The notes under the pieces: generated by a model
Databases searched by the model: none
Seen by the model: the letters and a program-made list of their open reading frames with translations, nothing else
Told to the model about the DNA's origin: nothing
Shown: positions 580 through 53,617 of the stretch, piece by piece
How the letters are laid out: the number at the start of each line of letters is the position of its first letter
How positions within the stretch are numbered: the stretch's first letter is position 1
Position numbers and translations under genes: made by a program
Assembly (NCBI RefSeq): GCF_055900595.2
Contig: NZ_CM148325.1
Length of the DNA stretch: 64,000 nucleotides
Strand: one strand, 5' to 3'

Positions 580-582
580 AAC

Positions 583-1140
583 TTACTGAATAACCAGCGT
601 ATTAATGATGTTTTCTGCGGTGGTCTGTGCTTTTTGCTGATCGTCAGCTGGCAGCGTAATTTGCATGGTCAGCAGTTGATTACCCACGTTACCCAGAATA
701 ACGGAAGAGTACGCCGTCTGGCCTTTCGCGGAGATAATGCTGTCTAACTGCTGCATTTTGTGACCTTTCAGCTCAATGGCTTTATTGGTTACCACTTGCA
801 GCTGCGGATCGCGGCTACGTTGCTGATCTTCCAGGCGCTTCGCCAGCACCGCCAGATCTTCTTTCGGATCATCGCCCATGATGACGATGACTGCTTTTTG
901 CCCGGTGGCGTCGGACCAGACATGCATGTTATTAGCCTGCGTTCCCAGCTTACCGCTCTGGTCGGTCATATCCGCTGGCAGCGAGAAACTTAACTTGCCA
1001 TCAAGCAGGTTGACGGGATTCCCGGTAGCGTTACTTTCCGCGACCGAACCCTGCGCCGTAGCGTTAGTGTCTTTATCATCACAGGCCGTAAGCCCCATAA
1101 CCAGCAGGCCAATTCCGACATATTTAACCAGATTGCGCAT
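583..1140 (-). CDS. dcrB: Periplasmic lipoprotein DcrB
   Basis: Translation [22 protein letters not shown] (lipobox LTAC); ORF track start at 1194 is an upstream in-frame extension, start chosen at the internal Met. Confidence 0.88.
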
Positions 1141-1212
1141 TGACTTCTTCCTTTCGATAAACGGCCATAACGGCTCATTCATCCATCTTATCACAACTCT
1201 GATAACGAACCT

Positions 1213-1878
1213 TTAACTCGCCTGCAAAGCGTTGATTTCGGATTTATCTGCCAGTCTTTTCAACAGCATATTGAGTAATACGCCATACATTGGCAGGAAG
1301 AAAACGATACTGATTAACACTTTGAAACAGTAATCGACCAGCGCGATTTCCATCCAGTGTTCAGCCATAAAGGCATCTGGGCTGCGCCAGAAGGCAATGA
1401 AGAAGAAGGCCAGCGTGTCGCTGACGTTACCAAACAGGGTGGAAGCCGTCGGTGCCAGCCACCAGCGACGACTCTGACGCAGGCGGTTAAAAACGTGCAC
1501 GTCGAGGATTTGCCCCAGCGCGTAGGCCATGAAACTGGCGGTGGCGATACGGGCGACAAACAGGTTGAAGTGGGCGAGCGCGCCGAATCCCTGCCAGGAA
1601 CCCATATAGAACAGCGACGAGATGACGTAGGAGATCAGTAACGCCGGGATCATCACCGCAAAGATGATACGACGGGCCAGCGGTGCGCCAAAAATACGCA
1701 CAGTCAGGTCGGTAGCAAGGAAAATAAACGGAAAGCTAAACGCGCCCCAGGTGGTATGGAAACCAAAAATGGATACGGGAAGCTGAACCAGATAGTTACT
1801 GGAGGTGATCACCAACAGATGAAATAACGATAACCAGAACAACGCCTTATAGCGTTGAGTTTGCGAGAAAACGTTCAT
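1213..1878 (-). CDS. yhhQ: Queuosine precursor transporter YhhQ
   Basis: 221-aa polytopic membrane protein, recognised sequence and synteny. Confidence 0.9.
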   Translation of the reverse strand: MNVFSQTQRYKALFWLSLFHLLVITSSNYLVQLPVSIFGFHTTWGAFSFPFIFLATDLTVRIFGAPLARRIIFAVMIPALLISYVISSLFYMGSWQGFGALAHFNLFVARIATASFMAYALGQILDVHVFNRLRQSRRWWLAPTASTLFGNVSDTLAFFFIAFWRSPDAFMAEHWMEIALVDYCFKVLISIVFFLPMYGVLLNMLLKRLADKSEINALQAS

Positions 1879-2098
1879 ATTGTACCTTTTTGATTAACCA
1901 TTGGGGTGAGGGAACCCAATACGTACGACACGTCTGTTACCTTAACATAATAACGTGCTGACCCTTTTTTCGAGCCGCCGCATGATACTGCTTTACGTTG
2001 ACAATGCAATGGTTAATTTTCACGCAATCGTTAACCTGGTTTGCTTACGGACTCACAGGGCGTAAACTAGCGCCGTTTTTTTATGTGATGAGAAGAAA

Positions 2099-2344
2099 AT
2101 GACCGATCTCTTTTCCAGCCCTGACCACACACTCGACGCACTTGGCCTGCGCTGCCCGGAACCAGTAATGATGGTGCGCAAAACTGTGCGCAATATGCAG
2201 CCAGGTGAAACGTTGCTGATTATTGCTGACGATCCGGCGACGACACGCGATATTCCTGGGTTTTGTACCTTTATGGAACACGAACTGGTTGCGAAAGAGA
2301 CCGATGGACTGCCTTATCGTTATTTGATTCGCAAATCGGGGTAA
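2099..2344 (+). CDS. tusA: Sulfur carrier protein TusA
   Basis: 81 aa; conserved CPxP motif (LGLRCPEPV). Confidence 0.95.
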
Positions 2345-2397
2345 GGTGGATCAGGCTAGCGGACCGATCGCGCTCAATTTTGCGGCTTGCAACCGGT

Positions 2398-2534
2398 TTG
2401 TAGGACGGATAAAACGTTCAAGCTGCATCTGGCGATACGGTGCGCAAGGCCTGATGCGACGCTGTCGCGTCTTATCATGCCTACGAGTTCGATGCCCTGT
2501 GTAGGCCAGGTAAGGCGTTTACGCCGCATCCGGC
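2398..2534. repeat. Cluster of REP (repetitive extragenic palindromic) elements, BIME-like
   Basis: Three imperfect palindromic units of the gcc(g/t)gatgcg...tgtaggcc type between tusA and the next ORF. Confidence 0.75.
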
Positions 2535-2558
2535 ACGCAAACGTAATGGAATGCACAA

Positions 2559-2867
2559 ATGGATTATTTAATTCCAGTTTGTCTGGCATTGCTGGGATTG
2601 CTCGCGATCTTCACCCCCAATTGGCTGATCCCTGTTTTTATCGTCGTGGGGGGATGGCTGGGGGTACTTGCCTGGGGTTGGCTCTGGCTAATGATTTTTT
2701 TACCTTTACTTAACGGTGTCGGGCTTGCTTATGCCCTGTGGTTGATGTTCAAAAGGCCATCCATAGCATCCCGCCTGGTTGCTGCATGCTGTGTTATCTC
2801 CGTCATTCTGATGTTAGCGCTTTATTATGCTTTCCTGACTATGCCGCCGTTCCCGGCCCAGCACTAA
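2559..2867 (+). CDS. Hypothetical small hydrophobic membrane protein (102 aa)
   Basis: ORF with 3-4 predicted TM stretches (W/L/G-rich), sits in an otherwise intergenic gap, followed immediately by a perfect 11-bp stem hairpin; weak SD; not recognised as a named gene. Confidence 0.4.
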   Translation: MDYLIPVCLALLGLLAIFTPNWLIPVFIVVGGWLGVLAWGWLWLMIFLPLLNGVGLAYALWLMFKRPSIASRLVAACCVISVILMLALYYAFLTMPPFPAQH

Positions 2868-2892
2868 GCCTGATAGCCAGAGGCTATCAGGC
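2868..2892. terminator. Hairpin terminator between the convergent 102-aa ORF and zntA
   Basis: GCCTGATAGCC-aga-GGCTATCAGGC perfect 11-bp stem, followed by AACACTTTTACTT. Confidence 0.6.
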
Positions 2893-2899
2893 AACACTT

Positions 2900-5098
2900 T
2901 TACTTCCTGCGCAACAATCTTAACGCATTCGCCGTCACCAGCACCGTCGCACCCGTATCTGCCAGCACCGCCAGCCAAAGGCCAGTCATTCCTAACAGCG
3001 TTGTGACGAGGAAGATCCCTTTCAGCCCCAGCGCAATGGTGATGTTCTGGCGGATATTGGCGTGAGTGGCGCGTGCCAGTTCAATCATCTGCGCCAGGCC
3101 GCGCAGGTGGTTATGGGTTAATGCTGCGTCGGCGGTTTCCAGCGCCACGTCTGTGCCACTGCCCATTGCAATCCCTATGGCGGCAGCTTTCATGGCGGGC
3201 GCGTCGTTAATACCGTCGCCGACCATCGCCAGCGGCGCATGTTGATTCAGCTCGGTCACCGCTTTGACTTTATCTTCCGGCAACAGGCCCGCTTTAAACT
3301 CCAGCCCCAACTCCCCGGCAATTGCCGCCGCTGCGCGTGGATTATCGCCAGTGAGGATCACCCCTTTGACACCCAGGGCGCTCAGTTCGCTGATGGCAGT
3401 TGCGGCGTCGGCGCGCAGGGTATCCTGCAATGCAATTACGCCAAGCACGTCATCGTTACGCACCACCAGTACTACCGTTTGCCCGGCGCTTTCCAGTTCG
3501 TTAATTAAACCAGCAAATGCAACAGCCGGATGTTTTCCGGCAGCGCATATCAACACGCGCTCGCCGTTAATCAGTGCTTCAATACCAGACCCGACCAGCG
3601 CCCGCTGTGATTCGGCGGCGGGAATGGCGAGTTCAGCAACCTGTGCTTCGCGTACGATGGCTTGCGCCAATGGATGCGTCGCGCCTTGCTCGACCGCCGC
3701 TGCCAGTGTCAGCAGTTCAGATTCACTAATACCCGTTGCCGGATGAATCGCGGTAACGCGCGGTTTACCGACGGTCAGCGTACCGGTTTTATCAAACGCC
3801 ACCTGGGTAACACGACCTAGTTGTTCCAGCGCCGCACCGCCTTTAATCAACGCCCCACGACGCGCTGCTGCTGCCAGCCCGGAGGTGATCGCCGCAGGTG
3901 TTGAGATCACCAGCGCACACGGGCAGCCAATCAGCAGCAGCGTCAGCCCTTTATAAATCCACTCCTGCCAGCTTGCGGCAAACAGCAGCGGCGGCACCAG
4001 CGTCACCAGCAGGGCGACGGCCATAATCGCTGGCGTGTAAATACGGCTGAAACGGTCGATAAACCGCTCAATCGGTGCGCGGCGCTCTTCAGCTTCTTCG
4101 ATCAGTTTCAGAATCCGGTCAATGGCGCTGGCACCCGGTTCTGACAGCACTTCCAGCGTTACCAGACGGTCTACGCTGGTGGCGCCTGCAGGAACTTTAT
4201 CACCCGTCGCGCGTTCCACCGGAATGGATTCGCCGGTCAGGGCGCTTTCATCAAAACTGGCAAACGGTGAGAGCAGTTTACCGTCGGCAGGTAAACGCCC
4301 ACCCGCTGCGACTTCAATCACATCGCCCGGACGCAGGCTGTTAATTGCTACCTCTTCACGCTTGCCATTACGCAGGCGCGTGGCGGTTTCCGGTTTCAGC
4401 GCCATTAACGCGCTGACCCCTTGACGCGCGCGGCTGGCGGCCCAGCCTTCCAGTCGTTCACCAATCAAAAATAGCAGCAACACCATCGCAGCTTCGGCGG
4501 TTGCGCCAATAAACAGCGCGCCAATGGCGGCTACGCTCATTAACGTTTCAATGGCGAAGTAGCTGCCCGATTTGATCAGCCGTAATGCCTGGCGCACAAT
4601 CGGGTACAGCCCAACCAGCGTGGTCGCGATAAACGCCAGTTGCCCGAACGGATGATTAAACTGCTCCAGACCCCAGCTGATTGCCATCAACACGATTAGC
4701 GTAATCAGCGGCAGATTCTCTTTCAGGCGTGATTCTTGTTGTTCGTCGGCGGACTGTTCATCGCGCAGGGAATAGCCCGCTTTTTGCACCGCAGATTCAA
4801 CTTGTGCACGGATGTCATTGTCGGCATCAACCACCAGTTTTTCGGTGGCGAACAGCACCTGCACCTGATTCACGCCTGCAAGCTGGCGCACGGCATTTTC
4901 TACCTTGCGCGCGCAGGCGGCGCAGTCCATGCCGCTGACTTTCCAGCTATAGCGGGTGCCGGAGACGTTTTCAGAGAGCGTTGGCGTGCTGGAACATGCG
5001 CCGTCGCAGCAACAGTCGTTGGCGTTCTGTGCCGTGGTTAGCGGTTTGAACGCAGCAAAGTGAGGGGCTTTCTTGCCGTTATTGTCAGGAGTCGACAT
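2900..5098 (-). CDS. zntA: Zn(II)/Cd(II)/Pb(II)-translocating P-type ATPase
   Basis: 732 aa; N-terminal GMDCAAC metal-binding motif, CPC in membrane domain, DKTGT phosphorylation motif. Confidence 0.96.
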   Translation of the reverse strand: MSTPDNNGKKAPHFAAFKPLTTAQNANDCCCDGACSSTPTLSENVSGTRYSWKVSGMDCAACARKVENAVRQLAGVNQVQVLFATEKLVVDADNDIRAQVESAVQKAGYSLRDEQSADEQQESRLKENLPLITLIVLMAISWGLEQFNHPFGQLAFIATTLVGLYPIVRQALRLIKSGSYFAIETLMSVAAIGALFIGATAEAAMVLLLFLIGERLEGWAASRARQGVSALMALKPETATRLRNGKREEVAINSLRPGDVIEVAAGGRLPADGKLLSPFASFDESALTGESIPVERATGDKVPAGATSVDRLVTLEVLSEPGASAIDRILKLIEEAEERRAPIERFIDRFSRIYTPAIMAVALLVTLVPPLLFAASWQEWIYKGLTLLLIGCPCALVISTPAAITSGLAAAARRGALIKGGAALEQLGRVTQVAFDKTGTLTVGKPRVTAIHPATGISESELLTLAAAVEQGATHPLAQAIVREAQVAELAIPAAESQRALVGSGIEALINGERVLICAAGKHPAVAFAGLINELESAGQTVVLVVRNDDVLGVIALQDTLRADAATAISELSALGVKGVILTGDNPRAAAAIAGELGLEFKAGLLPEDKVKAVTELNQHAPLAMVGDGINDAPAMKAAAIGIAMGSGTDVALETADAALTHNHLRGLAQMIELARATHANIRQNITIALGLKGIFLVTTLLGMTGLWLAVLADTGATVLVTANALRLLRRK

Positions 5099-27354: not shown

Positions 27355-27361
27355 TATCTTA

Positions 27362-27390
27362 AGCCCTCTCCCGGTAGGTGAGGGCTTTTA
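27362..27390. terminator. Hairpin terminator between convergent ggt and yhhY
   Basis: AGCCCTC ... GAGGGCT followed by TTTTAG. Confidence 0.7.
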
Positions 27391-27403
27391 GATTACAAAT
27401 TCT

Positions 27404-27892
27404 CTATTTCACCCGCGCCATATAATACGCATCGACATATTCACCGTTTCGTAATGCGTACTTCTTGCCAGTCCCTTCAATTTCAAAGCCGAATTTTTTA
27501 TAGACCTTAATTGCTGGCGCGTTATCAACGAACACCGTTAGTTCAATACGATCTACCCGCAACCAGTTGTCGCACATTTCAATCATCTCTCGCATCAGGG
27601 CGCTGGCGACGCCGCGGTTCTTCCAGCGGGAGTCGACACAGATACCAAAGTCGGCAACATGACTGCGGCGTGGGCGTTGCTGTACGTCAATAGTGAGATG
27701 ACCCACGACGTCTCCATCAATACAGGCGACGAGTTGCTTGATGCCGGGACGATCGGCGAGTCGCTCCTGCCACATTGGCTCTGACGGATGAGGCACCTGT
27801 AGCGTGTTGTAATACACCTCCGGTTGGGCGTGAATTTGCCTGATGGCCTCGTAATCCCGTGTTTCTGCGTGGCGTATTACTATCTCACTCAT
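27404..27892 (-). CDS. yhhY: GNAT-family N-acetyltransferase
   Basis: Start at internal Met MSEIVIRHAETRDYEAIRQIH; upstream part of the 188-aa ORF treated as non-coding. Confidence 0.88.
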   Translation of the reverse strand: MSEIVIRHAETRDYEAIRQIHAQPEVYYNTLQVPHPSEPMWQERLADRPGIKQLVACIDGDVVGHLTIDVQQRPRRSHVADFGICVDSRWKNRGVASALMREMIEMCDNWLRVDRIELTVFVDNAPAIKVYKKFGFEIEGTGKKYALRNGEYVDAYYMARVK

Positions 27893-39703: not shown

Positions 39704-40999
39704 ATGGTTAGTTTAGAGAAGAACGATCACTTAATGTTGGCGCGCCAGCTGCCATTGAAATCTGTTGCCCTGATACTGGCGGGAGGACGTGGTACCCGCC
39801 TGAAGGATTTAACCAATAAGCGAGCAAAACCGGCCGTACACTTCGGCGGTAAGTTCCGCATTATCGACTTTGCACTGTCTAACTGCATCAACTCCGGGAT
39901 CCGTCGTATGGGCGTGATCACCCAGTACCAGTCCCATACTCTGGTGCAGCACATTCAGCGCGGCTGGTCATTCTTCAATGAAGAAATGAACGAGTTTGTC
40001 GATCTGTTGCCAGCGCAGCAGAGAATGAAAGGGGAAAACTGGTATCGCGGCACCGCAGATGCGGTCACGCAAAACCTCGACATTATTCGCCGTTACAAAG
40101 CGGAATATGTGGTGATCCTGGCGGGCGACCATATCTACAAGCAAGACTACTCGCGTATGCTTATCGACCACGTCGAAAAAGGCGCACGTTGCACCGTCGC
40201 TTGTATGCCTGTACCGATTGAAGAAGCCTCCGCATTTGGCGTTATGGCGGTTGATGAGAACGATAAAATTATCGAATTCGTTGAAAAACCCGCTAACCCG
40301 CCGTCAATGCCGAACGATCCGAGCAAATCTCTGGCGAGCATGGGTATCTACGTCTTTGACGCCGACTATCTGTATGAACTGCTGGAAGAAGACGATCGCG
40401 ATGAGAACTCCAGCCACGACTTTGGTAAAGATTTGATTCCCAAAATCACCGAAGCCGGTCTGGCCTATGCGCACCCGTTCCCGCTCTCTTGCGTACAATC
40501 CGACCCGGATGCCGAGCCGTACTGGCGCGATGTGGGTACGCTTGAAGCTTACTGGAAAGCGAACCTCGATCTGGCATCAGTGGTGCCGGAACTGGATATG
40601 TACGATCGCAATTGGCCAATTCGCACCTACAATGAATCATTACCGCCAGCGAAATTCGTGCAAGATCGCTCCGGTAGCCACGGGATGACCCTTAACTCAC
40701 TGGTTTCCGGCGGTTGTGTGATCTCCGGTTCGGTGGTGGTGCAGTCCGTTCTGTTCTCGCGCGTTCGCGTGAATTCATTCTGCAACATTGATTCCGCCGT
40801 ATTGTTACCGGAAGTATGGGTAGGTCGCTCGTGCCGTCTGCGCCGCTGCGTCATTGATCGTGCTTGTGTTATTCCGGAAGGCATGGTGATTGGTGAAAAC
40901 GCAGAGGAAGATGCACGTCGTTTCTATCGTTCAGAAGAAGGCATCGTGCTGGTAACGCGCGAAATGCTACGGAAGTTAGGGCATAAACAGGAGCGATAA
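39704..40999 (+). CDS. glgC: Glucose-1-phosphate adenylyltransferase
   Basis: Start at internal Met [16 protein letters not shown]; GGRGTRL motif. Confidence 0.96.
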
Positions 41000-42432
41000 T
41001 GCAGGTTTTACATGTATGTTCAGAGATGTTCCCGCTGCTTAAAACCGGCGGTCTGGCTGATGTTATTGGGGCATTACCCGCAGCACAAATCGCAGACGGC
41101 GTTGACGCTCGCGTACTGTTGCCTGCATTTCCCGATATTCGCCGTGGCGTAACCGATGCGCAGGTGGTATCTCGCCGTGATACCTTCGCAGGGCATATCA
41201 CGCTGTTGTTCGGCCATTACAACGGGGTTGGCATTTACCTGATTGACGCGCCGCATCTCTATGATCGTCCGGGAAGCCCGTATCACGATACCAACTTATT
41301 TGCCTACACTGACAACGTATTGCGTTTTGCGCTGTTGGGGTGGGTTGGGGCAGAAATGGCCAGCGGGCTTGACCCATTCTGGCGCCCTGATGTGGTGCAT
41401 GCGCACGACTGGCATGCGGGCCTTGCGCCTGCGTATCTGGCGGCGCGCGGGCGTCCGGCGAAGTCGGTGTTTACTGTGCACAACCTGGCCTATCAAGGCA
41501 TGTTTTATGCACATCACATGAATGACATCCAATTGCCATGGTCATTCTTTAATATTCATGGGCTGGAATTCAACGGACAAATCTCTTTCCTGAAGGCTGG
41601 TCTGTACTATGCCGATCATATTACGGCGGTCAGCCCGACCTACGCTCGCGAGATCACCGAACCGCAGTTTGCCTACGGTATGGAAGGTCTGTTGCAACAG
41701 CGTCACCGTGAAGGGCGTCTTTCCGGCGTACTAAACGGCGTGGATGAAAAAATCTGGAGTCCAGAGACGGACTTACTGTTGGCCTCGCGTTACACCCGCG
41801 ATACGTTGGAAGATAAAGCGGAGAATAAGCGCCAGTTACAAATCGCAATGGGGCTTAAGGTTGACGATAAAGTGCCGCTTTTTGCAGTGGTGAGCCGTCT
41901 GACCAGCCAGAAAGGTCTCGACCTGGTGCTGGAAGCCTTACCAGGCCTTCTGGAGCAGGGCGGACAGCTGGCGCTACTCGGCGCGGGTGATCCGGTGTTG
42001 CAGGAAGGTTTCCTTGCCGCGGCCGCGGAATATCCCGGACAAGTGGGCGTTCAGATTGGCTATCACGAAGCATTTTCGCATCGCATTATGGGCGGCGCGG
42101 ACGTCATTCTGGTGCCCAGCCGTTTTGAACCGTGCGGCTTAACGCAACTTTATGGATTGAAGTACGGTACGCTGCCGTTAGTGCGGCGCACCGGTGGGCT
42201 TGCTGATACGGTTTCTGACTGTTCTCTTGAGAACCTTGCAGATGGCGTCGCCAGTGGGTTTGTCTTTGAAGATAGTAATGCCTGGTCGCTGTTACGGGCT
42301 ATTCGACGTGCTTTTGTACTGTGGTCCCGTCCTTCACTGTGGCGGTTTGTGCAACGTCAGGCTATGGCAATGGATTTTAGCTGGCAGGTCGCGGCGAAGT
42401 CGTACCGTGAGCTTTACTATCGCTTGAAATAG
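40999..42432 (+). CDS. glgA: Glycogen synthase
   Basis: 477 aa; KTGGL motif; 1-nt overlap with glgC (TAATG). Confidence 0.97.
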
Positions 42433-44898
<2,466 letters not shown>

Positions 44899-44914
44899 GT
44901 TCACTAAAAAATAG

Positions 44915-44944
44915 AACGGGGCCAAATCGGTCCCGTTTTTTTTT
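44915..44944 (+). terminator. glgP intrinsic terminator
   Basis: CGGGGCC-aaat-GGTCCCG hairpin followed by T9. Confidence 0.85.
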
Positions 44945-44992
44945 GCCTTTATTTCGGAGAAGTGTCCAGAGGGGCAAGGGGACTCGGGGGAG

Positions 44993-44998
44993 TATAAT
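44993..44998 (+). promoter_or_regulatory. Candidate -10 hexamer (TATAAT) for the accessory operon; no good -35
   Basis: Exact TATAAT 18 bp upstream of the first ATG of the 505-aa ORF. Confidence 0.3.
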
Positions 44999-45015
44999 TT
45001 CGCCATTCAGAAAGA

Positions 45016-46533
45016 ATGGAAAGAATAATGCAAAACAGAAAATGGATTTTGACCTCGCTGATAATGACTTTTTTCGGCATCCCCATACTGACGCAATTTT
45101 TGGCAGCGGTTATTGCCATGCTGGGGGCCGGGCTTGCCGCTATTCTTGAGGTTTGCAATTTTCTCTTTACGCCAACAATTTATCTTCTACTCAACGTCTT
45201 TATGCTGACGCTGGGGGCGATAATTCTATTTTTCTCTGGTCGCGTGTGGGCCGGTGATAGCGCACCAGAAAACAGAGAAATAGCCGTCTGGCGGCAATGC
45301 TTTTTTCTTTTACCTGCACTGTTAACTCTGGTTGGCTGGATAATCACGCTACATCTGGCAGATTATCAATTTCGCCAAATGGGAGCAGGTTGGTTGGCAG
45401 AGCTTATGCTCCCCTGGCTGGGAGTTTTGTTAGTCTCATTAGTCGGAGGTGAGTTCTGGTGGATAGTCATTATACCCGTTGGTGCGCATATTAGTTTTTC
45501 GCTGGGGTATGGCTGGCCGACCAGATATCCTTTAACCGGCACGTACGGGTTACGTTGCCGTAATTCCCTCCTGTTTATCCTTCTTATGCTTGGTTTTATC
45601 GCTGGTTATCAGGCTTATTTATATAAACAGCTTAATCCCGGCGTCGGTGTGCGTGAAAATATTGATACCTGGGCCTGGCGACCCGATAAACTCAATAATC
45701 AACTGACGCCACTGCGTGGTAAACCGCAAATTCAGTTTACACAAAACTGGCTGCGACTCGATGGTGCTACGGCGGCGTACCCAATTTATGCTTCTGCCTT
45801 TTATGCGTTGAGCGTTATACCGGAAGATTTCCACACCTGGGAATATCTGGAGAACTCTCGTACCCCCGATGCATATAACAGGATTGTTAAAGGTGATGCC
45901 GATATTATTTTTGTGGCGCAACCTTCCGGTGGGCAGAAAAAACGCGCAGAGGAATCGGGCGTCACTTTGAACTACACTCCTTTCGCCCGTGAAGCATTCG
46001 TTTTCATCGTCAATGCGGATAACCCGGTTAATTCCCTGACTGACCAACAGGTGCGTGACATCTTCAGTGGCGCAATTACCAACTGGCGTACTGTTGGCGG
46101 TAACGATCAGGAGATCCAGACCTGGCAACGCCCGGAAGACTCTGGCAGCCAGACAGTGATGCAATCGCAGGTCATGAAAAATGTCCGCATGATCTCGCCG
46201 CAGGAAACCGAAGTGGCAAGCATGATGGAGGGAATGATTAAAGTTGTTGCCGAATACCGTAATACAAACAACTCAATAGGCTACACCTTCCGCTATTACG
46301 CAACACAAATGAACGCTGACAAGAATATCAAATTAGTAGCGATTAACGGTATTGCACCGACTGCGGAAAATATTCGTAACGGCAAATATCCGTATATCGT
46401 CGATGCCTTTATGGTAACGCGGGAAAATACTACGTCAGAAACACAAAAACTGGTCGAATGGTTTTTAACGCCGCAGGGGCAGAGTCTGGTGGAAGATGTG
46501 GGTTATGTACCGTTGCATACAACAATGAAATAA
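45016..46533 (+). CDS. Hypothetical fusion protein: N-terminal polytopic membrane domain (about 215 aa) plus C-terminal substrate-binding-like domain (PstS-like)
   Basis: 505-aa ORF (alternative start at Met5, 45028, with better SD); 6 or more hydrophobic helices; C-terminal domain about 60% identical to the next ORF (IIFVAQPSGGQKKRAEE..., WQRPEDSGSQTVM). Confidence 0.8.
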   Translation: MERIMQNRKWILTSLIMTFFGIPILTQFLAAVIAMLGAGLAAILEVCNFLFTPTIYLLLNVFMLTLGAIILFFSGRVWAGDSAPENREIAVWRQCFFLLPALLTLVGWIITLHLADYQFRQMGAGWLAELMLPWLGVLLVSLVGGEFWWIVIIPVGAHISFSLGYGWPTRYPLTGTYGLRCRNSLLFILLMLGFIAGYQAYLYKQLNPGVGVRENIDTWAWRPDKLNNQLTPLRGKPQIQFTQNWLRLDGATAAYPIYASAFYALSVIPEDFHTWEYLENSRTPDAYNRIVKGDADIIFVAQPSGGQKKRAEESGVTLNYTPFAREAFVFIVNADNPVNSLTDQQVRDIFSGAITNWRTVGGNDQEIQTWQRPEDSGSQTVMQSQVMKNVRMISPQETEVASMMEGMIKVVAEYRNTNNSIGYTFRYYATQMNADKNIKLVAINGIAPTAENIRNGKYPYIVDAFMVTRENTTSETQKLVEWFLTPQGQSLVEDVGYVPLHTTMK

Positions 46534-46558
46534 CTTTTGAGAGAACGGAATCAGCGCG

Positions 46559-47551
46559 ATGAATAAATTCATAGGCGTTTTACTGCTAGGTGCGGTTTTA
46601 CTGGCGGGATGTGTCGACCGGGAAGGGTACTATAACAGCGTCAGGGAAGAAGAGAGTCATGGACTGACGTCTCTGCGGGGGCAACCTGAATTACGTTACA
46701 ACGATGATTGGTCAAGATGGCCGAGAGTGTACGGCGCTACAGCCTTATACCCGCTGTATGCCTCCGCGTATTATGAATTAGTACCCGAGCCAAAAGATAA
46801 GGATCGAACCTCGCTGGCCTGGCAGGCGTATGGTTTGCAACAAACCCGAACAGCTGAAGCCTACGATAGTCTGATCAAGGGTACCGCGACGGTTATTTTT
46901 GTTGCACAACCGTCGGAAGGACAGAAAAAACGTGCAGAAGAAGCAGGCGTTAAACTGAAATATACCGCGTTTGCCCGCGAAGCCTTTGTCTTTATCGTTG
47001 ATATCAAAAACCCGGTTAATTCACTTAGCGAACAGCAGGTCAAAGACATTTTTAGCGGTAAAGTGAGTCGCTGGAATAAAGTGGGCGGCGGTGACGAAAG
47101 TATAAAAGTCTGGCAGCGGCCAGAAGATTCTGGAAGCCAAACGGTTATGAAGGGACTGGTTATGCAAGATACTCCAATGCTGCCAGCCAAAAAATCCACT
47201 GTTATCGATCTTATGGGCGGTTTAATTACCGAAGTCGCCGACTACAAAAATACACCATCTTCTATTGGATACACTTTCCACTATTACGTCACACGTATGA
47301 ATGACAATATGCTCAAAATGCGCAAACAGATCAAACTGCTGGCTATAAATGGCGTTGCACCTACAGAGGAAAATATCCGTAACGGCACTTATCCGTACAT
47401 GATTGATGCTTATATGGTGACGCACGAAACCCCTACGCTGGAAACGCAGAAATTCGTCGACTGGTTTTTAAGCCCGCAGGGACAGCAATTGGTAGAGGAT
47501 GTGGGGTATGTGCCGATTCATGACGCATCATACGAATCATCAGTGCAATAA
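46559..47551 (+). CDS. Hypothetical lipoprotein with substrate-binding-like domain (paralogue of the preceding C-terminal domain)
   Basis: 330 aa; signal peptide with lipobox LLAGC (Cys18); VIFVAQPSEGQKKRAEE and WQRPEDSGSQTVM motifs shared with the 505-aa ORF. Confidence 0.85.
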   Translation: MNKFIGVLLLGAVLLAGCVDREGYYNSVREEESHGLTSLRGQPELRYNDDWSRWPRVYGATALYPLYASAYYELVPEPKDKDRTSLAWQAYGLQQTRTAEAYDSLIKGTATVIFVAQPSEGQKKRAEEAGVKLKYTAFAREAFVFIVDIKNPVNSLSEQQVKDIFSGKVSRWNKVGGGDESIKVWQRPEDSGSQTVMKGLVMQDTPMLPAKKSTVIDLMGGLITEVADYKNTPSSIGYTFHYYVTRMNDNMLKMRKQIKLLAINGVAPTEENIRNGTYPYMIDAYMVTHETPTLETQKFVDWFLSPQGQQLVEDVGYVPIHDASYESSVQ

Positions 47552-48153
47552 TGATGAATAAAATCAGACTTTATATTCCTCCGTTAATTCTTGGTTTTGT
47601 TATTGTGCCGTTGTTGGTGTGGCCGACGGTGGTTGCGCTGGCTGCTTCTGTTATCACGCTGAGTTTTCTGGGAGAGATACTGTTCTCTATCCCGCTCATG
47701 ATCAGGCGTATTTCACTTCTGCAATTACAACTATGGTTATCGGCTGAATATGCGCTTTTCTGCTGTGCAATGGTGGGCGTTGGTTGGCAATTTGCTCGTA
47801 TAACTCAATCTGAATTGAAAAGCAGACTGCATTGTTGGCTGGTATTTGCACCAGTTTATTTCTGGTTGCTCCTGTGGAATATCATTTTCTATGTCGCGCC
47901 AGCGAATATTGCGTTGCTGGAGAATATGCGCAGTTTCTTTCTGACAGTTGTCTGGCTCCCACTAAATTTTTCGCCATTTTGGTCTCAACCGTGGATTGAC
48001 TTTGTCGGTCCAATAAGCGCACAGCTTGGTTTTGCGTTGGGATATTATTGCCAGTGGCGTAGCAAAAATAGAAGCCAGATACGGAAGTGGAGTGAGTGGG
48101 GAACGTGCCTGAGTTTTGTTACGTTGGGTATGATGGCGTGGGCTTTGCGGTAA
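47551..48153 (+). CDS. Hypothetical polytopic membrane protein (200 aa)
   Basis: Start overlaps the preceding stop (TAATG); 5-6 hydrophobic helices; loosely resembles the N-terminal domain of the 505-aa ORF. Confidence 0.7.
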   Translation: MMNKIRLYIPPLILGFVIVPLLVWPTVVALAASVITLSFLGEILFSIPLMIRRISLLQLQLWLSAEYALFCCAMVGVGWQFARITQSELKSRLHCWLVFAPVYFWLLLWNIIFYVAPANIALLENMRSFFLTVVWLPLNFSPFWSQPWIDFVGPISAQLGFALGYYCQWRSKNRSQIRKWSEWGTCLSFVTLGMMAWALR

Positions 48154-48202
48154 TTCCCTGACTCAAAAAGTAGGTCAGATTGTTGACAAAGTGCGCTTTG
48201 TT

Positions 48203-48301
48203 CATGCCGGATGCGACATGAACGTCTTATTGGCCTACAAGACCATGCAAATTCAATATATTGCATAAGCCACGTAGGCCTGATAAGCGTAGCGCATCAG
48301 G
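48203..48301. repeat. Pair of REP elements (BIME) followed by a T-tract
   Basis: tgccggatgcgacatgaacgtcttattggcctaca and cgtaggcctgataagcgtagcgcatcaggca then GTTTTTTG. Confidence 0.85.
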
Positions 48302-48323
48302 CAGTTTTTTGTTTATCATCAGT

Positions 48324-48347
48324 CTCAGGTCAGATTGAAATCTGACC
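48324..48347. other. Near-perfect 24-bp palindrome downstream of glpD, no U-tract on either strand
   Basis: CAGGTCAGATT-ga-AATCTGACCTG. Confidence 0.5.
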
Positions 48348-48365
48348 TGGCCACCTTACGTTAAT

Positions 48366-49871
48366 TTACGACGCCAGCGACAACCTCTGCTGCGTATATT
48401 CCCCTAGCCACTGACTCACACGGGATTGTTGCTGCGCATTCAGCCACATGCCTTGTTTTGTGCGACGCCACAGGGCATCGTCGGCGCGGCGGACCCATTC
48501 GTGGTCGACCAGATATTTCAGCTCCGCTTCGTAGAACTCATGACCGAAATCCTCCCCGAGGTCGCTTACCGCCCCCGCGTTGCCGAGCAGCAGCTCGCTA
48601 TTGCTGCCGTAAGTGCGTGCGTAATGACGTGCCAGCGATTCAGTCAGGAACGGGTAACGGCGGCGCAGGCGGGCGGCATAATCGTCGCGATCGCCTTCAA
48701 TGGCACCACCCGGCAGCACGCTCTCTTTCGTCCACGCCGGGCCAATGCCCTGATAATACGGCGTCAGTTTTTCCAGCGCGTGCTCCGCCAGTTTGCGGTA
48801 GGTGGTCAGCTTACCGCCGAATACTGATAACAGCGGAGCTTTGCCGTTTTCATCATGGATATCAAGGGTGTAATCACGGGTAATGGCCTGCGGCGAATCG
48901 GACTCATCATCACACAGTGGACGCACGCCGGAGTAGGTCCAGACGATATCATCCCGGCTTAGCTGCTTTTTAAAGTGCGCGTTATACACTTTCAGCAGGT
49001 AATTGATTTCACTCTCTTCAATCTTCACCGCTTTCGGATCGCCTTTATACTCCACATCGGTGGTACCGATAATGGAAAACTCGTCCATCCACGGGATCAC
49101 GAACACAATACGCTTATCTTCGTTTTGCAGAATGTAGGCCTGCTTTTGGGTATGCACGCGCGGCACCACAATATGGCTGCCTTTGATCAGGCGAATGCCA
49201 TAAGGCGAAGGCAGATGCATCCCGTCGTCGAAGAACTGTTTCACCCACGGGCCGGTGGCATTCACCAGACCGCGTGCCTGCCAGCTGTATTTTTTACCGG
49301 TATCAATATCTTCTGCTTCTACAATCCACAGGCCGTTTTCGCGGCGAGCAGAAGTGGCGCGAGTCCGGGTAAGCACTTCACCGCCTTTACGCACCACCAT
49401 CTGGGCGTTGGCGAGTACCAGACGCGCATCGTCTACCCAACAGTCGGAATATTCGAATCCGCGCTTAATTTCCGGTTTTAACACTGAATTTGCGCCAAAA
49501 CGCAAACCGGTAGATCCCGGCAGGCTGGTACGCTTACCCAGATGATCGTACATAAACAGACCAATACGGATCATCCACGCCGGACGCAGATGCGGGCGAT
49601 GCGGCAGGCGAAAACGCATCGGGAAAGCGATATGGGGAGCCATTTTCAGCAACACTTCACGTTCAGCCAGCGCCTCGCTGACCAGGCGGAATTCATAGTG
49701 CTCAAGGTAGCGAAGGCCACCATGAATGAGTTTTGAACTGGCGGAAGAGGTCGCACAAGCGAGATCCTGCGCCTCCAGCATCAGCACGGATAAACCGCGT
49801 CCAGCGGCGTCTGCCGCGATACCAGCACCATTGATGCCGCCACCTATCACAATCAGATCTTTGGTTTCCAT
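48366..49871 (-). CDS. glpD: Aerobic glycerol-3-phosphate dehydrogenase
   Basis: Start at internal Met METKDLIVIGGGINGAGIA (FAD-binding). Confidence 0.96.
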   Translation of the reverse strand: METKDLIVIGGGINGAGIAADAAGRGLSVLMLEAQDLACATSSASSKLIHGGLRYLEHYEFRLVSEALAEREVLLKMAPHIAFPMRFRLPHRPHLRPAWMIRIGLFMYDHLGKRTSLPGSTGLRFGANSVLKPEIKRGFEYSDCWVDDARLVLANAQMVVRKGGEVLTRTRATSARRENGLWIVEAEDIDTGKKYSWQARGLVNATGPWVKQFFDDGMHLPSPYGIRLIKGSHIVVPRVHTQKQAYILQNEDKRIVFVIPWMDEFSIIGTTDVEYKGDPKAVKIEESEINYLLKVYNAHFKKQLSRDDIVWTYSGVRPLCDDESDSPQAITRDYTLDIHDENGKAPLLSVFGGKLTTYRKLAEHALEKLTPYYQGIGPAWTKESVLPGGAIEGDRDDYAARLRRRYPFLTESLARHYARTYGSNSELLLGNAGAVSDLGEDFGHEFYEAELKYLVDHEWVRRADDALWRRTKQGMWLNAQQQSRVSQWLGEYTQQRLSLAS

Positions 49872-49904
49872 GCTGCCCTCATTCACTTTCGTTAAAGCTC
49901 ATAA

Positions 49905-49922
49905 ATGTTCGTTATCGAACAT
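49905..49922. promoter_or_regulatory. GlpR operator palindrome in the glpD / glpE divergent region
   Basis: ATGTTCGTTATCGAACAT, about 35 bp upstream of the glpD start. Confidence 0.7.
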
Positions 49923-49982
49923 ATTAGCAAAGAATCGCGCTTTAGGTAACATTGAAAAAACATTTTAGAGTGATATGTATAA

Positions 49983-50387
<405 letters not shown>

Positions 50388-50419
50388 CGCTTTATACTGT
50401 CCCCTTTTGTGTGGAATAA

Positions 50420-51262
<843 letters not shown>

Positions 51263-51278
51263 TTCCAGGGATTTATAA

Positions 51279-52037
51279 ATGAAACAAACACAACGTCACA
51301 ACGGTATTATTGAACTGGTTAAACAGCAGGGTTATGTCAGCACCGAAGAACTGGTGGAACACTTCTCCGTCAGTCCGCAGACTATTCGTCGTGACCTCAA
51401 CGAGCTGGCGGAGCAAAACCTGATCCTGCGTCACCATGGCGGCGCGGCACTGCCTTCCAGTTCGGTTAACACGCCGTGGCACGATCGTAAGGCCACCCAG
51501 ACCGAAGAAAAAGAGCGTATTGCCCGCAAAGTGGCGGAGCAAATTCCTAACGGCTCGACGCTATTTATTGATATCGGCACCACGCCGGAAGCGGTGGCGC
51601 ACGCGCTGCTTAATCACAGCAATTTGCGCATTGTGACCAACAATCTCAACGTCGCTAACACGCTGATGGTAAAAGAAGATTTTCGCATCATTCTTGCAGG
51701 TGGCGAATTACGCAGCCGCGATGGTGGGATCATTGGCGAAGCGACGCTCGATTTTATCTCCCAGTTCCGCCTTGATTTCGGGATTCTGGGGATCAGCGGC
51801 ATCGATAGCGACGGCTCGCTGCTGGAGTTCGATTACCACGAAGTTCGCACCAAACGCGCTATTATTGAGAACTCGCGCCACGTTATGCTGGTTGTCGATC
51901 ACTCGAAATTTGGCCGTAATGCGATGGTCAATATGGGCAGCATCAGCATGGTCGATGCCGTCTACACCGACGCCCCGCCACCAGCGAGCGTGATGCAGGT
52001 GCTGACAGACCATCATATTCAGCTGGAGCTGTGCTGA
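51279..52037 (+). CDS. glpR: Glycerol-3-phosphate regulon repressor (DeoR family)
   Basis: 252 aa, N-terminal HTH. Confidence 0.95.
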   Translation: MKQTQRHNGIIELVKQQGYVSTEELVEHFSVSPQTIRRDLNELAEQNLILRHHGGAALPSSSVNTPWHDRKATQTEEKERIARKVAEQIPNGSTLFIDIGTTPEAVAHALLNHSNLRIVTNNLNVANTLMVKEDFRIILAGGELRSRDGGIIGEATLDFISQFRLDFGILGISGIDSDGSLLEFDYHEVRTKRAIIENSRHVMLVVDHSKFGRNAMVNMGSISMVDAVYTDAPPPASVMQVLTDHHIQLELC

Positions 52038-53617
52038 TCCTGCACGGCTTCCCACGTCAGACCAAAACGCGCCAGGTATTTGCGTAGCCGATCCGCGTCG
52101 TTGACGCTGGCTTTGCCCTGGCGCGAAACATCAAAGAGTTCACGCCCGGCAGCGGAAAGCGATTTTGCCTGACGGCAGATAGCGATAACGTGTTCCAGTT
52201 GCAGCCGATCAAAGAGGTCGATGTTTTCCGCTTCAGCGCCCAGTAGCTGCTTAAGCGCAGAAGAGCGGCTATCCTGCCAGTTGTAGCGTAGACGGTTTAT
52301 CTCATCTTCTACGGTTTCAAGGGTGATACGCCCACTATCGGCAAACGTCGCCATGCGTGTGACGCTGGCAGAAAGCTCGCGAAAGTTACCGCGCCATGTT
52401 GCCTGGGGAGATGTCGCAAAGGCCAGCCAGGCGCGCCTCGCTTCGGTGTTAAAACGTACGCTGTCGCCGGTGAGTGAGGCGTGGCGCTCCACTTCATAAT
52501 CCAGGTTCGGTTCAATATCTTCCTGGCGCTGGCGTAGACCCGGCAGGGTGAAGGTCCAGAGATTGATCCGCGCGTACAGGTCTTCGCGAAATTTGCCTTC
52601 GGCAACCAGCTGACGCAAATCGCGCACCGTTCCGGCGATCAGCTGAAAATCACTGCTCACCTGGCGATCGCTACCAAACGGGTAAAAGGTTTTCTCTTCA
52701 ATGGCTTTCAGCAACATCGCCTGTTCGTCTGCGCCCAGTTCGCCAATCTCATCAAGAAACAACATGCCACCGTTGGCGCTGCGTAATAATCCTTCACGAG
52801 ATTCCCGCGCCCCGGTGAACGCGCCTTTCACATGACCAAACAGCGCGGACATGGCGGTATCGCCACGCAGAGTGGCGCAGTTCACTTCCACAAACTCGCC
52901 GCTAAACTGATGCCTCGCCTGTTTTAACTCGAAGATGCGTCGTGCCAGAAACGACTTTCCCGCACCAGTTGGGCCGTTGAGCAGGATCGGCGCGCGGGAT
53001 CTAATCGCCACTTTTTCGATCTGCTCAATCATGCGGTTGAAATGGGAGTTACGCGTGGCAATGCCGGATTTGAGGAAATCGAGGGTTTGCTGGCGTTCTT
53101 CGGCAAAGCGGCTGGCAATAGCGTTATAACGGCTTAAATCGAGATCGATAATCGTCACCGCACCAGGGCTGTTGGGCTGTTCTTTTTTACGCGGTGGCGA
53201 AGATTGTATTAACCTGGCGGGCAGGTAACGCGCTTCCGCCAGCAGAAACCAGCAAATCTGCGCGACGTGGGTACCGGTGGTGATGTGAATTAAATAGTCT
53301 TCTTTATCAGGTTCGAACGCGTAACCACGGGCGAAATCATGCAGGCAGGCGTAAACCTCCTCGAAATCCCACGGGTTATGCAGTTCAATCTCAACGCTCA
53401 CCACTTCTGTTTCTGGCGAAACATTGGCGATATCGCGTTTAAGCGTTTCAAACAGCGAGCGTGAGCGGGCGTCGTGCAACAATTCCAGTCGATTGATGAC
53501 TAACGATTCTTGCTGGCATAGACAGAGTGACGGACGCCATTTCGACCATCGCTGACTGCCGCGCCCGGCATAATCCAGTACGGTGCCGACAAAGCCAAAA
53601 GCCACTGTTTTACGCAT
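52019..53617 (-). CDS. rtcR: sigma-54-dependent transcriptional activator RtcR
   Basis: 532 aa; AAA+ Walker A GPTGAGKS and GAFTGA loop. Confidence 0.95.
   Translation of the reverse strand: MRKTVAFGFVGTVLDYAGRGSQRWSKWRPSLCLCQQESLVINRLELLHDARSRSLFETLKRDIANVSPETEVVSVEIELHNPWDFEEVYACLHDFARGYAFEPDKEDYLIHITTGTHVAQICWFLLAEARYLPARLIQSSPPRKKEQPNSPGAVTIIDLDLSRYNAIASRFAEERQQTLDFLKSGIATRNSHFNRMIEQIEKVAIRSRAPILLNGPTGAGKSFLARRIFELKQARHQFSGEFVEVNCATLRGDTAMSALFGHVKGAFTGARESREGLLRSANGGMLFLDEIGELGADEQAMLLKAIEEKTFYPFGSDRQVSSDFQLIAGTVRDLRQLVAEGKFREDLYARINLWTFTLPGLRQRQEDIEPNLDYEVERHASLTGDSVRFNTEARRAWLAFATSPQATWRGNFRELSASVTRMATFADSGRITLETVEDEINRLRYNWQDSRSSALKQLLGAEAENIDLFDRLQLEHVIAICRQAKSLSAAGRELFDVSRQGKASVNDADRLRKYLARFGLTWEAVQDQHSSS

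What the first reader, a model, noticed from the sequence alone, without database searches (positions are those of the whole stretch)
45016..48153. Compositional shift: the accessory cluster looks AT-richer with rarer codons than the flanking glg and glp genes
By eye, ORF A and especially ORF C use many ATA, TTA, CTA and AAT codons and contain T-runs, whereas glgP and glpD are GC-richer with typical E. coli codon usage. This is consistent with horizontally acquired or low-expression accessory DNA at a BIME-bounded junction.
Basis: seen in the sequence. Interest (0 to 1): 0.4.

Follow-up and report, generated by a model that had tools for sequence, protein, structure and literature searches.

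The report
Old low-GC gene cluster, not imported
The three genes between glgP and glpD are measurably AT-richer and use poorer codons than their neighbours, but they look like an old, fast-evolving, often-deleted resident of this chromosomal junction rather than recently imported DNA.

Summary
ORFs A (45016-46533), B (46559-47551) and C (47551-48153) have GC 0.45-0.47 and GC3 0.47-0.49. These are the three lowest GC3 values among 48 ORFs in the window (z -2.7 to -3.1), and CAI is low. Against 155 genes sampled from the same genome the dip is modest, at about the 10th-20th percentile for GC and GC3.

The recent-horizontal-transfer reading is not supported:
- ORF A orthologues lie between glgP and glpD in E. 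albertii, Salmonella and Klebsiella oxytoca.
- Their GC3 tracks each host.
- The dinucleotide signature is host-typical.
- No tRNA, integrase or IS gene is present, and there are no plasmid or phage copies.
- A REP/BIME flanks only the glpD side.

K-12's pseudogene yzgL is a microhomology deletion scar of this cluster.

The locus is structurally polymorphic in E. coli: A in 62%, B in 16%, and C or its 77%-identical variant in 71% of 5,426 genomes. Alleles are deep (dS 0.30-0.41) but under purifying selection (dN/dS 0.11-0.37).

ORF A fuses an unclassified polytopic membrane module to a PstS-like periplasmic binding domain. B (a lipoprotein binding domain) and C (a free membrane module, HHalign 98%) form a split copy. 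No ABC partner is encoded nearby, and the function is unknown.

The parts
44913..44939 (+). Intrinsic terminator of glgP: an 11-bp stem followed by a T-run. It is the left boundary of the cluster. No REP element lies here.
   Evidence: terminator scan; sequence.
44991..44996 (+). Perfect TATAAT hexamer upstream of ORF A with no convincing -35. It is a candidate promoter only.
   Evidence: Sequence. The consensus scan found no better site upstream. Inference, not tested.
45016..46533 (+). ORF A, 505 aa from the first ATG. The RefSeq start is 45025 (502 aa), which fits the homologues' MKNxKW N-termini better.

Residues about 1-205 form a polytopic membrane module with no Pfam or NCBIfam family. 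Residues about 246-502 form a PstS-like periplasmic binding domain.
   Evidence: - Pfam PBP_like_2, E 2.9e-30, at residues 246-485.
- TIGR02136 scores 119 bits, below its 206.6 cut-off.
- AF2 model: pLDDT 88.9, pTM 0.79.
- Foldseek best hits are all phosphate-binding proteins, TM 0.76-0.78.
- The RefSeq start is shown.
- GC 0.470, GC3 0.490.
46559..47551 (+). ORF B, 330 aa. It is a PstS-like binding protein with a lipoprotein signal (LLAGC lipobox, Cys18). It is a paralogue of the ORF A C-terminal domain.
   Evidence: - 57% aa identity to ORF A residues 224-501, E 3e-118.
- Pfam PBP_like_2, E 1.4e-29.
- PDB sequence hits are PstS proteins, with RPEDSGSQ aligned to their R..SGS/T anion-binding motif.
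- The lipobox was read from the translation.
- GC 0.468, GC3 0.471.
47551..48153 (+). ORF C, 200 aa. It is a free-standing copy of the membrane module found at the N-terminus of ORF A. Its start overlaps the ORF B stop (TAATG), which suggests translational coupling.
   Evidence: - HHalign of the ORF A N-terminal family against the ORF C family: probability 98.2%, E 4e-14, 167 columns.
- HMMER profile A3 hits ORF C at 2.7e-14.
- No Pfam, NCBIfam or PADLOC hit.
- Junction sequence.
- GC 0.453, GC3 0.483, CAI 0.199.
45250..48093 (.). Interval missing in K-12-type E. coli. The K-12 pseudogene yzgL is the first 74 codons of ORF A, joined at a short GTGGG-type microhomology to the last roughly 60 nt of ORF C.
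   Evidence: - BLAST of the window against ESY002: 40881-45249 and 48094-52380 align, with an 8-bp overlap.
- yzgL annotation.
- Junction sequences.
- A 60-nt remnant at 100% identity lies under yzgL (H53).
48206..48302 (.). REP/BIME-like element between ORF C and glpD. It has an exact Z-type REP on the minus strand at 48274-48302 and a degenerate inverted Y-type REP at about 48206-48239.
   Evidence: -: 0 mismatches to the consensus, 3 copies in the window, 0 expected by chance.
- The Y-type partner exceeds 3 mismatches and was read by eye.
- This stretch is what matches at a median of 18 places per E. coli genome and in transduced segments.
- It is absent from the alternative '201-aa' haplotype.
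48366..49871 (-). glpD, the right-hand core flank (GC 0.553, GC3 0.61). It shows raised synonymous diversity next to the cluster.
   Evidence: Annotation; composition; dS 0.08-0.29 among E. coli.

Best explanation
The compositional dip is real. It marks a three-gene operon that is an old, vertically inherited and fast-evolving resident of the glgP-glpD junction in Enterobacteriaceae. It does not mark recently imported DNA.

The lower GC, GC3 and CAI most likely arise from three things:
- Weak translational selection on a poorly expressed operon.
- Relaxed purifying selection, which lets AT-biased mutation show at silent and first codon positions.
- The T-rich codons of its membrane segments.

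The locus decays and rearranges repeatedly. K-12 keeps only a deletion scar (yzgL). Other E. coli carry A alone with other small genes, or the auf fimbrial operon instead of A.

How the products probably work (inferred, low confidence):
- ORF A is a polytopic inner-membrane module, N-terminus in and C-terminus out, carrying a periplasmic PstS-like oxyanion-binding domain.
- ORF B (lipoprotein binding domain) plus ORF C (free membrane module) are a split second copy of the same two-module unit.
- The unit acts without a dedicated ABC permease or ATPase. It may capture or sense phosphate or a phosphorylated ligand at the inner membrane.
For: Shown:
- The dip is significant within the window.
- ORF A orthologues sit at the same junction in E. 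albertii (88% aa), K. oxytoca (54%) and Salmonella (49%).
- Their GC3 tracks the host. In K. oxytoca it is 0.649 against flanks of 0.64-0.71. In Salmonella it is 0.558 against 0.63-0.67. In E. coli it is 0.49 against 0.57-0.63. In E. albertii it is 0.449 against 0.54-0.56.
- Dinucleotide signature distance is 0.052. That equals the median of 404 same-size host windows, and 87% of windows in a true island region exceed it.
- dS of ORF A to E. albertii is 0.46-0.55, in line with flanking glgA at 0.33 and glgP at 0.63-0.71.
- The cluster is chromosomal and essentially single-copy (median one place per genome) in 3,349 (A), 884 (B) and 3,828 (C or its variant) of 5,426 genomes, with no plasmid places.
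- The only 'plasmid' protein hit is a 4.8-Mb mislabelled chromosome. Phage hits are confined to the REP/BIME stretch, apart from a mislabelled Salmonella chromosomal contig and one weak 168-nt match.
- No tRNA and no Rfam element.
- Selection is relaxed but the genes are functional. dN/dS is 0.12-0.16 (A), 0.11-0.26 (B) and 0.19-0.37 (C), against 0.00-0.08 for most flank comparisons (one near-identical glpG pair gives 0.30).
- All six A alleles examined are intact at 1,509 nt, and no 40-codon window exceeds 0.5.
- GC1 is also depressed (0.46-0.55), and AT skew is negative in the membrane-coding parts.

Architecture:
- A and B binding domains are paralogous.
- C is homologous to the A N-terminus.
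- The binding domain has a PstS fold.
- 90 of the best 150 representative proteins carrying the membrane module also carry the binding domain, and 23 are free-standing.
- K+R counts in the loops fit N-in, C-out.
- No pstCAB-like genes lie next to any of seven homologue loci.
Against: - In E. coli and E. albertii the GC3 deficit against the flanks (about 0.10) is larger than in K. oxytoca (about 0). An Escherichia-specific replacement by a lower-GC xenologue at the same site is therefore not strictly excluded.
- ORF A is only about 50% identical between E. coli and Salmonella. That is far below typical core orthologues, and E. coli is not closer to Salmonella than to Klebsiella.
- Within-E. coli dS (0.30-0.41) approaches the E. 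albertii distance. This could reflect imports of alleles from other Escherichia lineages, which would be horizontal transfer by homologous recombination.
- Low expression is inferred from codon usage only. No expression data were found.
- The functional model is inference. The ligand, the partner proteins and the B-C interaction are untested.
- The membrane helix count is ambiguous: AF2 shows 6-7 helices, while charge bias requires an odd number of crossings.
Confidence: 0.72

Rival explanations
1. Recent horizontal acquisition. The cluster would be foreign DNA from a lower-GC donor, inserted between glgP and glpD and not yet ameliorated.
For: - Lowest GC and GC3 in the window, with rare codons enriched.
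- Presence or absence varies among E. coli.
- The same junction holds the auf fimbrial island in B2 strains (PMC12928451, read).
Against: - Syntenic orthologues in three other species of the family.
- GC3 tracks the host.
- Host-typical dinucleotide signature.
- dS to E. albertii equals that of the flanks.
- No mobility genes, tRNA or flanking direct repeats.
- No copies on plasmids or phages.
- Absence in K-12 is a deletion with a scar, not an empty site.
- Only the 10th-20th percentile for GC and GC3 genome-wide.
Confidence: 0.05
2. An old resident locus whose alleles are repeatedly replaced by homologous recombination from divergent Escherichia lineages, or kept as ancient balanced haplotypes. 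The odd composition and deep divergence would then be partly inherited from those lineages. The locus would be a local 'bastion of polymorphism' maintained by selection on an envelope-exposed product.
For: - dS among E. coli A alleles is 0.30-0.41 against 0.006-0.21 in glgA and glgP. C and the 201-aa variant differ by dS 0.8-1.0.
- Divergence peaks at the cluster: 10.8% in A and 15.7% in C, against 0.5-5% in flanks, for 07-4299 versus JCH8249.
- Identity along the cluster is mosaic, 86-98% in 300-bp bins.
- E. albertii C is closer to the window's C (80%) than to the E. coli 201-aa variant (68%).
Against: - No segment shows dN/dS above 0.5, so there is no direct sign of diversifying selection.
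- Only five or six alleles were compared, and no formal recombination or coalescent test was run.
- The window strain is 3-6% diverged across most of the compared part of the window (16-64 kb), which inflates comparisons that involve it.
- This rival explains the diversity better than it explains the GC dip. It is compatible with the best explanation rather than exclusive of it.
Confidence: 0.18
3. Pure amino-acid-composition artefact. The AT-richness would come only from hydrophobic membrane segments encoded by T-rich codons, with no difference in silent-site composition.
For: - ORF C and the first 40% of ORF A are polytopic membrane segments with strongly negative AT skew.
- GC1 is depressed, at 0.46-0.52.
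Against: - GC3, which is largely independent of amino-acid content, is the most deviant measure (z about -3).
- GC3 is equally low in the soluble ORF B (0.471).
- GC2 is normal, at 0.39-0.42.
Confidence: 0.05

Closest known systems
E. coli K-12 pseudogene yzgL (between glgP and glpD)
   Same: Same locus. yzgL corresponds to the first 74 codons of ORF A, with the same upstream region and glgP terminator.
   Different: K-12 has lost window positions 45250-48093 by a microhomology deletion. The window carries the intact three-gene form. A full-text search for yzgL found no functional study.
PstS-family phosphate-binding proteins (Pfam PF12849 PBP_like_2; NCBIfam TIGR02136; for example PDB 4gd5, 4q8r, 1twy, 9l8j)
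   Same: - Class II periplasmic-binding fold, Foldseek TM 0.76-0.78.
- A significant Pfam match.
- A conserved R-x3-S-G-S motif aligned to the PstS anion-binding loop, and an invariant GAT...P N-terminal motif.
- ORF B is a lipoprotein, as many PstS proteins are.
   Different: - Scores 119-121 bits against the TIGR02136 cut-off of 206.6, and only about 20% identity to solved PstS structures.
- No pstC, pstA or pstB at this locus or at seven homologue loci.
- The ligand is untested.
auf fimbrial island (GR 24, glpD..glgP) of B2/ExPEC E. coli
   Same: It occupies the same glgP-glpD junction, which shows that the junction is a recognised variable region (PMC12928451, read). It keeps a 201-aa homologue of ORF C next to glpD.
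   Different: It is a chaperone-usher fimbrial operon unrelated to A and B. In those strains it takes the place of ORF A.
Binding-protein-dependent secondary transporters with small membrane subunits (TRAP DctPQM, TTT TctABC), and ABC permeases fused to a binding domain
   Same: A periplasmic binding domain is paired, fused or split, with a small polytopic membrane protein. This is resemblance by architecture only.
   Different: No large 12-TM subunit and no ABC domains are encoded nearby. There is no sequence or fold similarity to DctQ, TctB or ABC permeases. This is an analogy recalled from general knowledge, not a tested relationship.

Membership tests
Recently acquired genomic island | Base composition and codon usage atypical for the host genome | tested here: inconclusive
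   The cluster is the lowest in the 64-kb window. It is only at the 10th-20th percentile for GC and GC3 among 155 genes sampled from the same genome.
Recently acquired genomic island | Oligonucleotide signature different from the host | tested here: not met
   Karlin delta* is 0.052, equal to the median of 404 host windows. Island-rich region L016 has a median of 0.078.
Recently acquired genomic island | Mobility hallmarks at the borders (tRNA, integrase or transposase, flanking direct repeats) | tested here: not met
   No tRNA. No such ORF or annotation. Only short chance-level repeats.
Recently acquired genomic island | Absent from the same site in sister species; copies on mobile elements | tested here: not met
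   ORF A orthologues lie between glgP and glpD in E. albertii, Salmonella and K. oxytoca. None of the E. coli places is on a plasmid. No plasmid or phage copies.
PstS phosphate ABC-transporter substrate-binding protein | PBP_like_2 / PstS fold | tested here: met
   Pfam E 1e-29 to 3e-30. The top 30 Foldseek hits are all phosphate-binding proteins.
PstS phosphate ABC-transporter substrate-binding protein | Reaches the curated family score (TIGR02136 / TIGR00975) | tested here: not met
   119.0 and 121.1 bits against a cut-off of 206.6. TIGR00975 scores 17 bits against 205.
PstS phosphate ABC-transporter substrate-binding protein | Encoded with the pstC/pstA permease and pstB ATPase genes | tested here: not met
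   The neighbours are glgP and glpD. No ABC genes are present here or at seven homologue loci.
PstS phosphate ABC-transporter substrate-binding protein | Binds orthophosphate | not testable with these tools
   Only motif conservation is available: RPEDSGSQ aligned to the R..SGS/T loop, and an invariant GAT..P motif.
REP/BIME-bounded intergenic junction | REP palindromes on both sides of the insert | tested here: not met
   There is an exact REP at 48274-48302 plus a degenerate inverted partner on the glpD side only. The glgP side has a terminator hairpin only.
yzgL locus of E. coli | Colinear with K-12 yzgL and its flanks | tested here: met
   ESY002 (K-12-type) aligns up to 45249 and from 48094. 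yzgL corresponds to 45025-45246.

The most novel reading that the evidence does not exclude
A-B-C may encode an undescribed, self-contained envelope system. Its core would be a rare polytopic membrane module: 182 representative clusters among 1.84 billion proteins, no Pfam family and no PDB fold relative. That module is almost always paired, fused or split, with a PstS-like binding domain, and it works without an ABC transporter.

The system has sat at the glgP-glpD junction since before Escherichia, Salmonella and Klebsiella diverged. In E. coli it is kept as very deep allelic lineages, together with a changing set of small downstream genes. That pattern would fit long-term balancing selection on an envelope-exposed target, for example a receptor or exclusion factor for phage or bacteriocins, or a new class of binding-protein-dependent uptake or sensing.
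Probability: 0.15. Interest if true: 0.6.

Novelty: new variant of a known kind. Interest (0 to 1): 0.3.

Why it matters
For genome scanning, this is a cautionary case. A local GC and codon dip next to a REP element looks like an island. Synteny, host-tracking GC3 and a native dinucleotide signature instead show an old, weakly constrained resident whose absence in K-12 is a deletion.

Three further points are new here:
- It explains what the K-12 pseudogene yzgL once was.
- It shows that the 'hypothetical' ORF C is a free copy of the ORF A membrane module.
- It flags a small, uncharacterised family, PstS-like domain plus polytopic module with no ABC partner, that carries unusually deep alleles in E. 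coli. That family could be tested experimentally in strains such as O157:H7 or ATCC 8739.

Tried and rejected
- **Family libraries.** Pfam, NCBIfam and PADLOC gave nothing for ORF C. The small neighbouring genes seen in other strains matched only ankyrin repeats (350-aa E. albertii protein) and uninformative 'hypothetical protein' NCBIfam families.
- **RNA elements.** Rfam and tRNA scans of the region found nothing.
- **Literature.** A search for yzgL found no functional study.
- **Direct comparison of C and the A N-terminus.** BLASTP was only suggestive (E 0.035). It was accepted after profile methods.
- **Positive selection.** Sliding dN/dS across ORF A gave no window above 0.5.
- **Promoter.** The consensus scan was at chance level, 4 found against 5.5 expected. 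Its one plus-strand hit near ORF A overlaps the start codon. A perfect -10 at 44991-44996 lacks a -35. A Pho-box reading of the upstream region, by eye, was not convincing and was dropped.
- **Polymorphic-toxin or immunity-island idea.** This was considered for the variable downstream genes. No toxin, immunity or defence family was detected, so it was not pursued.
- **Elevated flank diversity.** It first looked striking. Part of it proved to be the window strain's general 3-6% divergence. The peak was confirmed only in a comparison that excludes that strain.
Full report

The local gene order is glgA, glgP (42451-44898, +), ORF A (45016-46533, +), ORF B (46559-47551, +), ORF C (47551-48153, +), a REP/BIME-like stretch, then glpD (48366-49871, -), glpE, glpG, glpR and rtcR. 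RefSeq starts ORF A at 45025. RefSeq names A and B 'PstS family phosphate ABC transporter substrate-binding protein' and C 'hypothetical protein'.

**Observation.** The compositional shift is real.
- GC is 0.470, 0.468 and 0.453 for A, B and C, against 0.505-0.554 for glgP, glgA and glpD.
- GC3 is 0.490, 0.471 and 0.483. These are the three lowest values among 48 long ORFs in the window. The other ORFs have mean 0.608 and sd 0.044, which gives z -2.7 to -3.1 and Mann-Whitney p 1e-4.
- The block is the lowest-GC 3.1-kb window in the 64 kb.
- ATA+TTA+CTA+AAT codons are about twice as frequent as elsewhere.

On a genome scale the shift is modest. I compared the three ORFs with 155 ORFs from the same genome: the window plus three 50-kb regions, one of them island-rich. 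They fall at the 10th-16th percentile for GC and the 18th-20th for GC3. For CAI they fall at the 17th, 37th and 2nd percentile. Real island genes in that genome have GC3 of 0.29-0.45.

**Origin.** The recent-transfer reading fails on every independent test I could run.
- *Synteny.* ORF A orthologues lie directly downstream of glgP and upstream of glpD in E. albertii (88% aa) and K. oxytoca (54%). In Salmonella enterica (49%) the orthologue lies between glgP and glpD, with extra genes on the glgP side.
- *Host tracking.* The orthologues' GC3 follows the host. In K. oxytoca it is 0.649 and indistinguishable from the flanks. In Salmonella it is 0.558, and in E. albertii 0.449.
- *Signature.* The Karlin dinucleotide distance of the cluster to host DNA is 0.052. 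That is the median for same-size host windows, and 87% of windows in a bona fide island region exceed it.
- *Divergence.* dS of ORF A between E. coli and E. albertii is 0.46-0.55. That is in line with the flanking core genes, glgA at 0.33 and glgP at 0.63-0.71.
- *Mobility.* There is no tRNA, integrase, IS element or meaningful flanking repeat. None of the E. coli places is on a plasmid. The one 'plasmid' protein hit is a 4.8-Mb record, which is a mislabelled chromosome. Phage-collection hits are essentially confined to the REP stretch.
- *Scar.* The K-12-type 'empty' site is a deletion. ESY002 aligns up to 45249 and resumes at 48094 with an overlapping GTGGG-type microhomology. Its yzgL pseudogene is the first 74 codons of ORF A.

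**Boundaries.** 'BIME-bounded' is half right. An exact REP lies at 48274-48302 with a degenerate inverted partner about 35 bp away, on the glpD side. The glgP side has only the glgP terminator. The alternative right-hand haplotype, with a 201-aa gene ending 54 bp from glpD, has no BIME at all.

**Population structure.** The junction is a structural hot spot. Among 5,426 complete E. coli genomes:
- ORF A is present in 3,349 (62%) and ORF B in 884 (16%).
- ORF C or its 77-78%-identical 201-aa variant is present in 3,828 (71%).
- The full A-B-C form is present in 881.

Other forms are A+255+201 aa, A+236+255+201 aa, the K-12 scar, and, in B2 strains, the auf fimbrial operon followed by 236+255+201 aa. 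The auf region is listed as genomic region GR 24 'glpD..glgP' in PMC12928451. E. albertii carries the longest array: A, B, a 375-aa protein whose N-terminus is another copy of the membrane module, then 236, 262, 255, C and an ankyrin protein.

Alleles are deep. dS among E. coli ORF A alleles is 0.30-0.41, and C differs from the 201-aa variant by dS 0.8-1.0. For comparison, glgA and glgP show dS 0.006-0.21.

The window strain is itself 3-6% diverged across most of the compared part of the window, 16-64 kb. I therefore checked a pair that excludes it. Divergence between 07-4299 and JCH8249 peaks at 10.8% in A and 15.7% in C, against 0.5-5% in flanks.

Selection is purifying but relaxed. dN/dS is 0.12-0.16 for A, 0.11-0.26 for B and 0.19-0.37 for C. 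Most flank comparisons give 0.00-0.08, and one near-identical glpG pair gives 0.30. No 40-codon window exceeds 0.5, and all A alleles examined are intact and of equal length. The genes are therefore functional, weakly constrained and old.

**Why the composition differs (inference).** Three causes fit the data.
- Weak codon selection, shown by low CAI and high Nc (51-57).
- Relaxed constraint, which exposes AT-biased mutation at third and first positions. GC1 is also low, while GC2 is normal.
- T-rich hydrophobic codons in A's N-terminus and in C.

The soluble ORF B is as GC3-poor as the membrane ORFs. Amino-acid content alone therefore cannot be the cause.

**What the genes are.**
- *Binding domains.* ORF A residues 246-502 and ORF B are 57%-identical paralogous PstS-like domains. 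They match Pfam PBP_like_2 at E about 1e-30 but stay below the TIGR02136 cut-off. Their closest solved structures are phosphate-binding proteins, with the R-x3-SGS loop conserved. B carries a lipobox (LLAGC).
- *ORF C.* It is homologous to that module. HHalign gives 98.2% probability and E 4e-14 over 167 columns, and an HMMER profile gives E 2.7e-14.

The operon therefore encodes the same two-module unit twice: once fused (A) and once split (B plus C, with overlapping stop and start codons, TAATG).

A profile of the module finds only 182 representative clusters among 1.84 billion proteins. Of the best 150, 90 carry the PstS-like domain and 23 are free-standing proteins of about 200 aa.

K+R counts in the loops across the family are 1.9, 0.2, 3.4, 0.7, 0.0 and 4.3. 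They fit an N-in, C-out topology with the binding domain in the periplasm. This requires one of the AF2 helices not to span the membrane, and I could not resolve that.

None of seven homologue loci has adjacent ABC permease or ATPase genes. The contexts differ between taxa, for example between ruvC and ruvA in a second Salmonella paralogue.

My best functional guess, at low confidence (about 0.3), is a membrane-tethered capture or sensing device for phosphate or a phosphorylated ligand that works independently of a dedicated ABC importer.

The finding itself is ordinary. The by-products are modestly interesting. They are the origin of yzgL, the homology of C to the A N-terminus, a rare uncharacterised module always paired with a PstS-like domain, and deep allelic lineages at a structurally unstable junction.

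Noticed in passing
window 27355-27404: The window strain lacks the ~2.7-kb yrhB-yrhD-yrhA-tssD (yhhZ, Hcp-family T6SS effector) segment. K-12-like ESY002, JCH8249 and 07-4299 carry it between ggt and yhhY. Only about 50 bp separate the two genes here.
   Followed up: partly
window 16000-64000: The window strain is 3-6% diverged from three other E. coli genomes over most of this span. Short stretches under 1% lie at 34-35 kb (asd) and 39-40 kb (glgX/glgC). This suggests a divergent lineage with recombination mosaics.
   Followed up: partly
window 48117-48365, versus L005 8756-8808: There are two very different right-hand haplotypes next to glpD. One is 'ORF C + REP/BIME', found in the window and in O157-lineage strains such as CV261 (L003), and in K-12 as a remnant. 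The other is a '201-aa gene, no BIME, 54 bp to glpD'. C and the 201-aa protein are 69-71% identical with dS 0.8-1.0. E. albertii's copy is closer to the window's C.
   Followed up: partly
L009 9524-14682 (E. albertii): E. albertii carries five further genes between B and glpD besides its ORF C homologue. They are a 375-aa protein with a third copy of the membrane module (GC 0.346), soluble proteins of 236, 262 and 255 aa with no family, and a 350-aa ankyrin-repeat protein. The 236-aa protein has homologues at the same junction in K. oxytoca (234 aa). Salmonella has a truncated fusion of it (181 aa).
   Followed up: partly
L021 6001-7497 (Salmonella); L022 6001-7503 (Brachymonas): A second, 37%-identical ORF A paralogue in Salmonella lies between ruvC and ruvA, with a Peptidase_C92 gene. 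A Brachymonas homologue lies immediately after ruvB. The shared ruv neighbourhood may be coincidence.
   Followed up: no
L014 31522-34820 (JCH8249); L003 1175-2388 (CV261): JCH8249 has a DprA gene plus a RecQ-family helicase gene inserted between yhgN and gntU. The window lacks this insert. In CV261, glgP is split by an IS3-family element.
   Followed up: no
window 44991-44996: A perfect TATAAT lies about 20-30 nt upstream of the ORF A start, with no recognisable -35. It might indicate an activator-dependent promoter. K-12 retains it upstream of yzgL.
   Followed up: no
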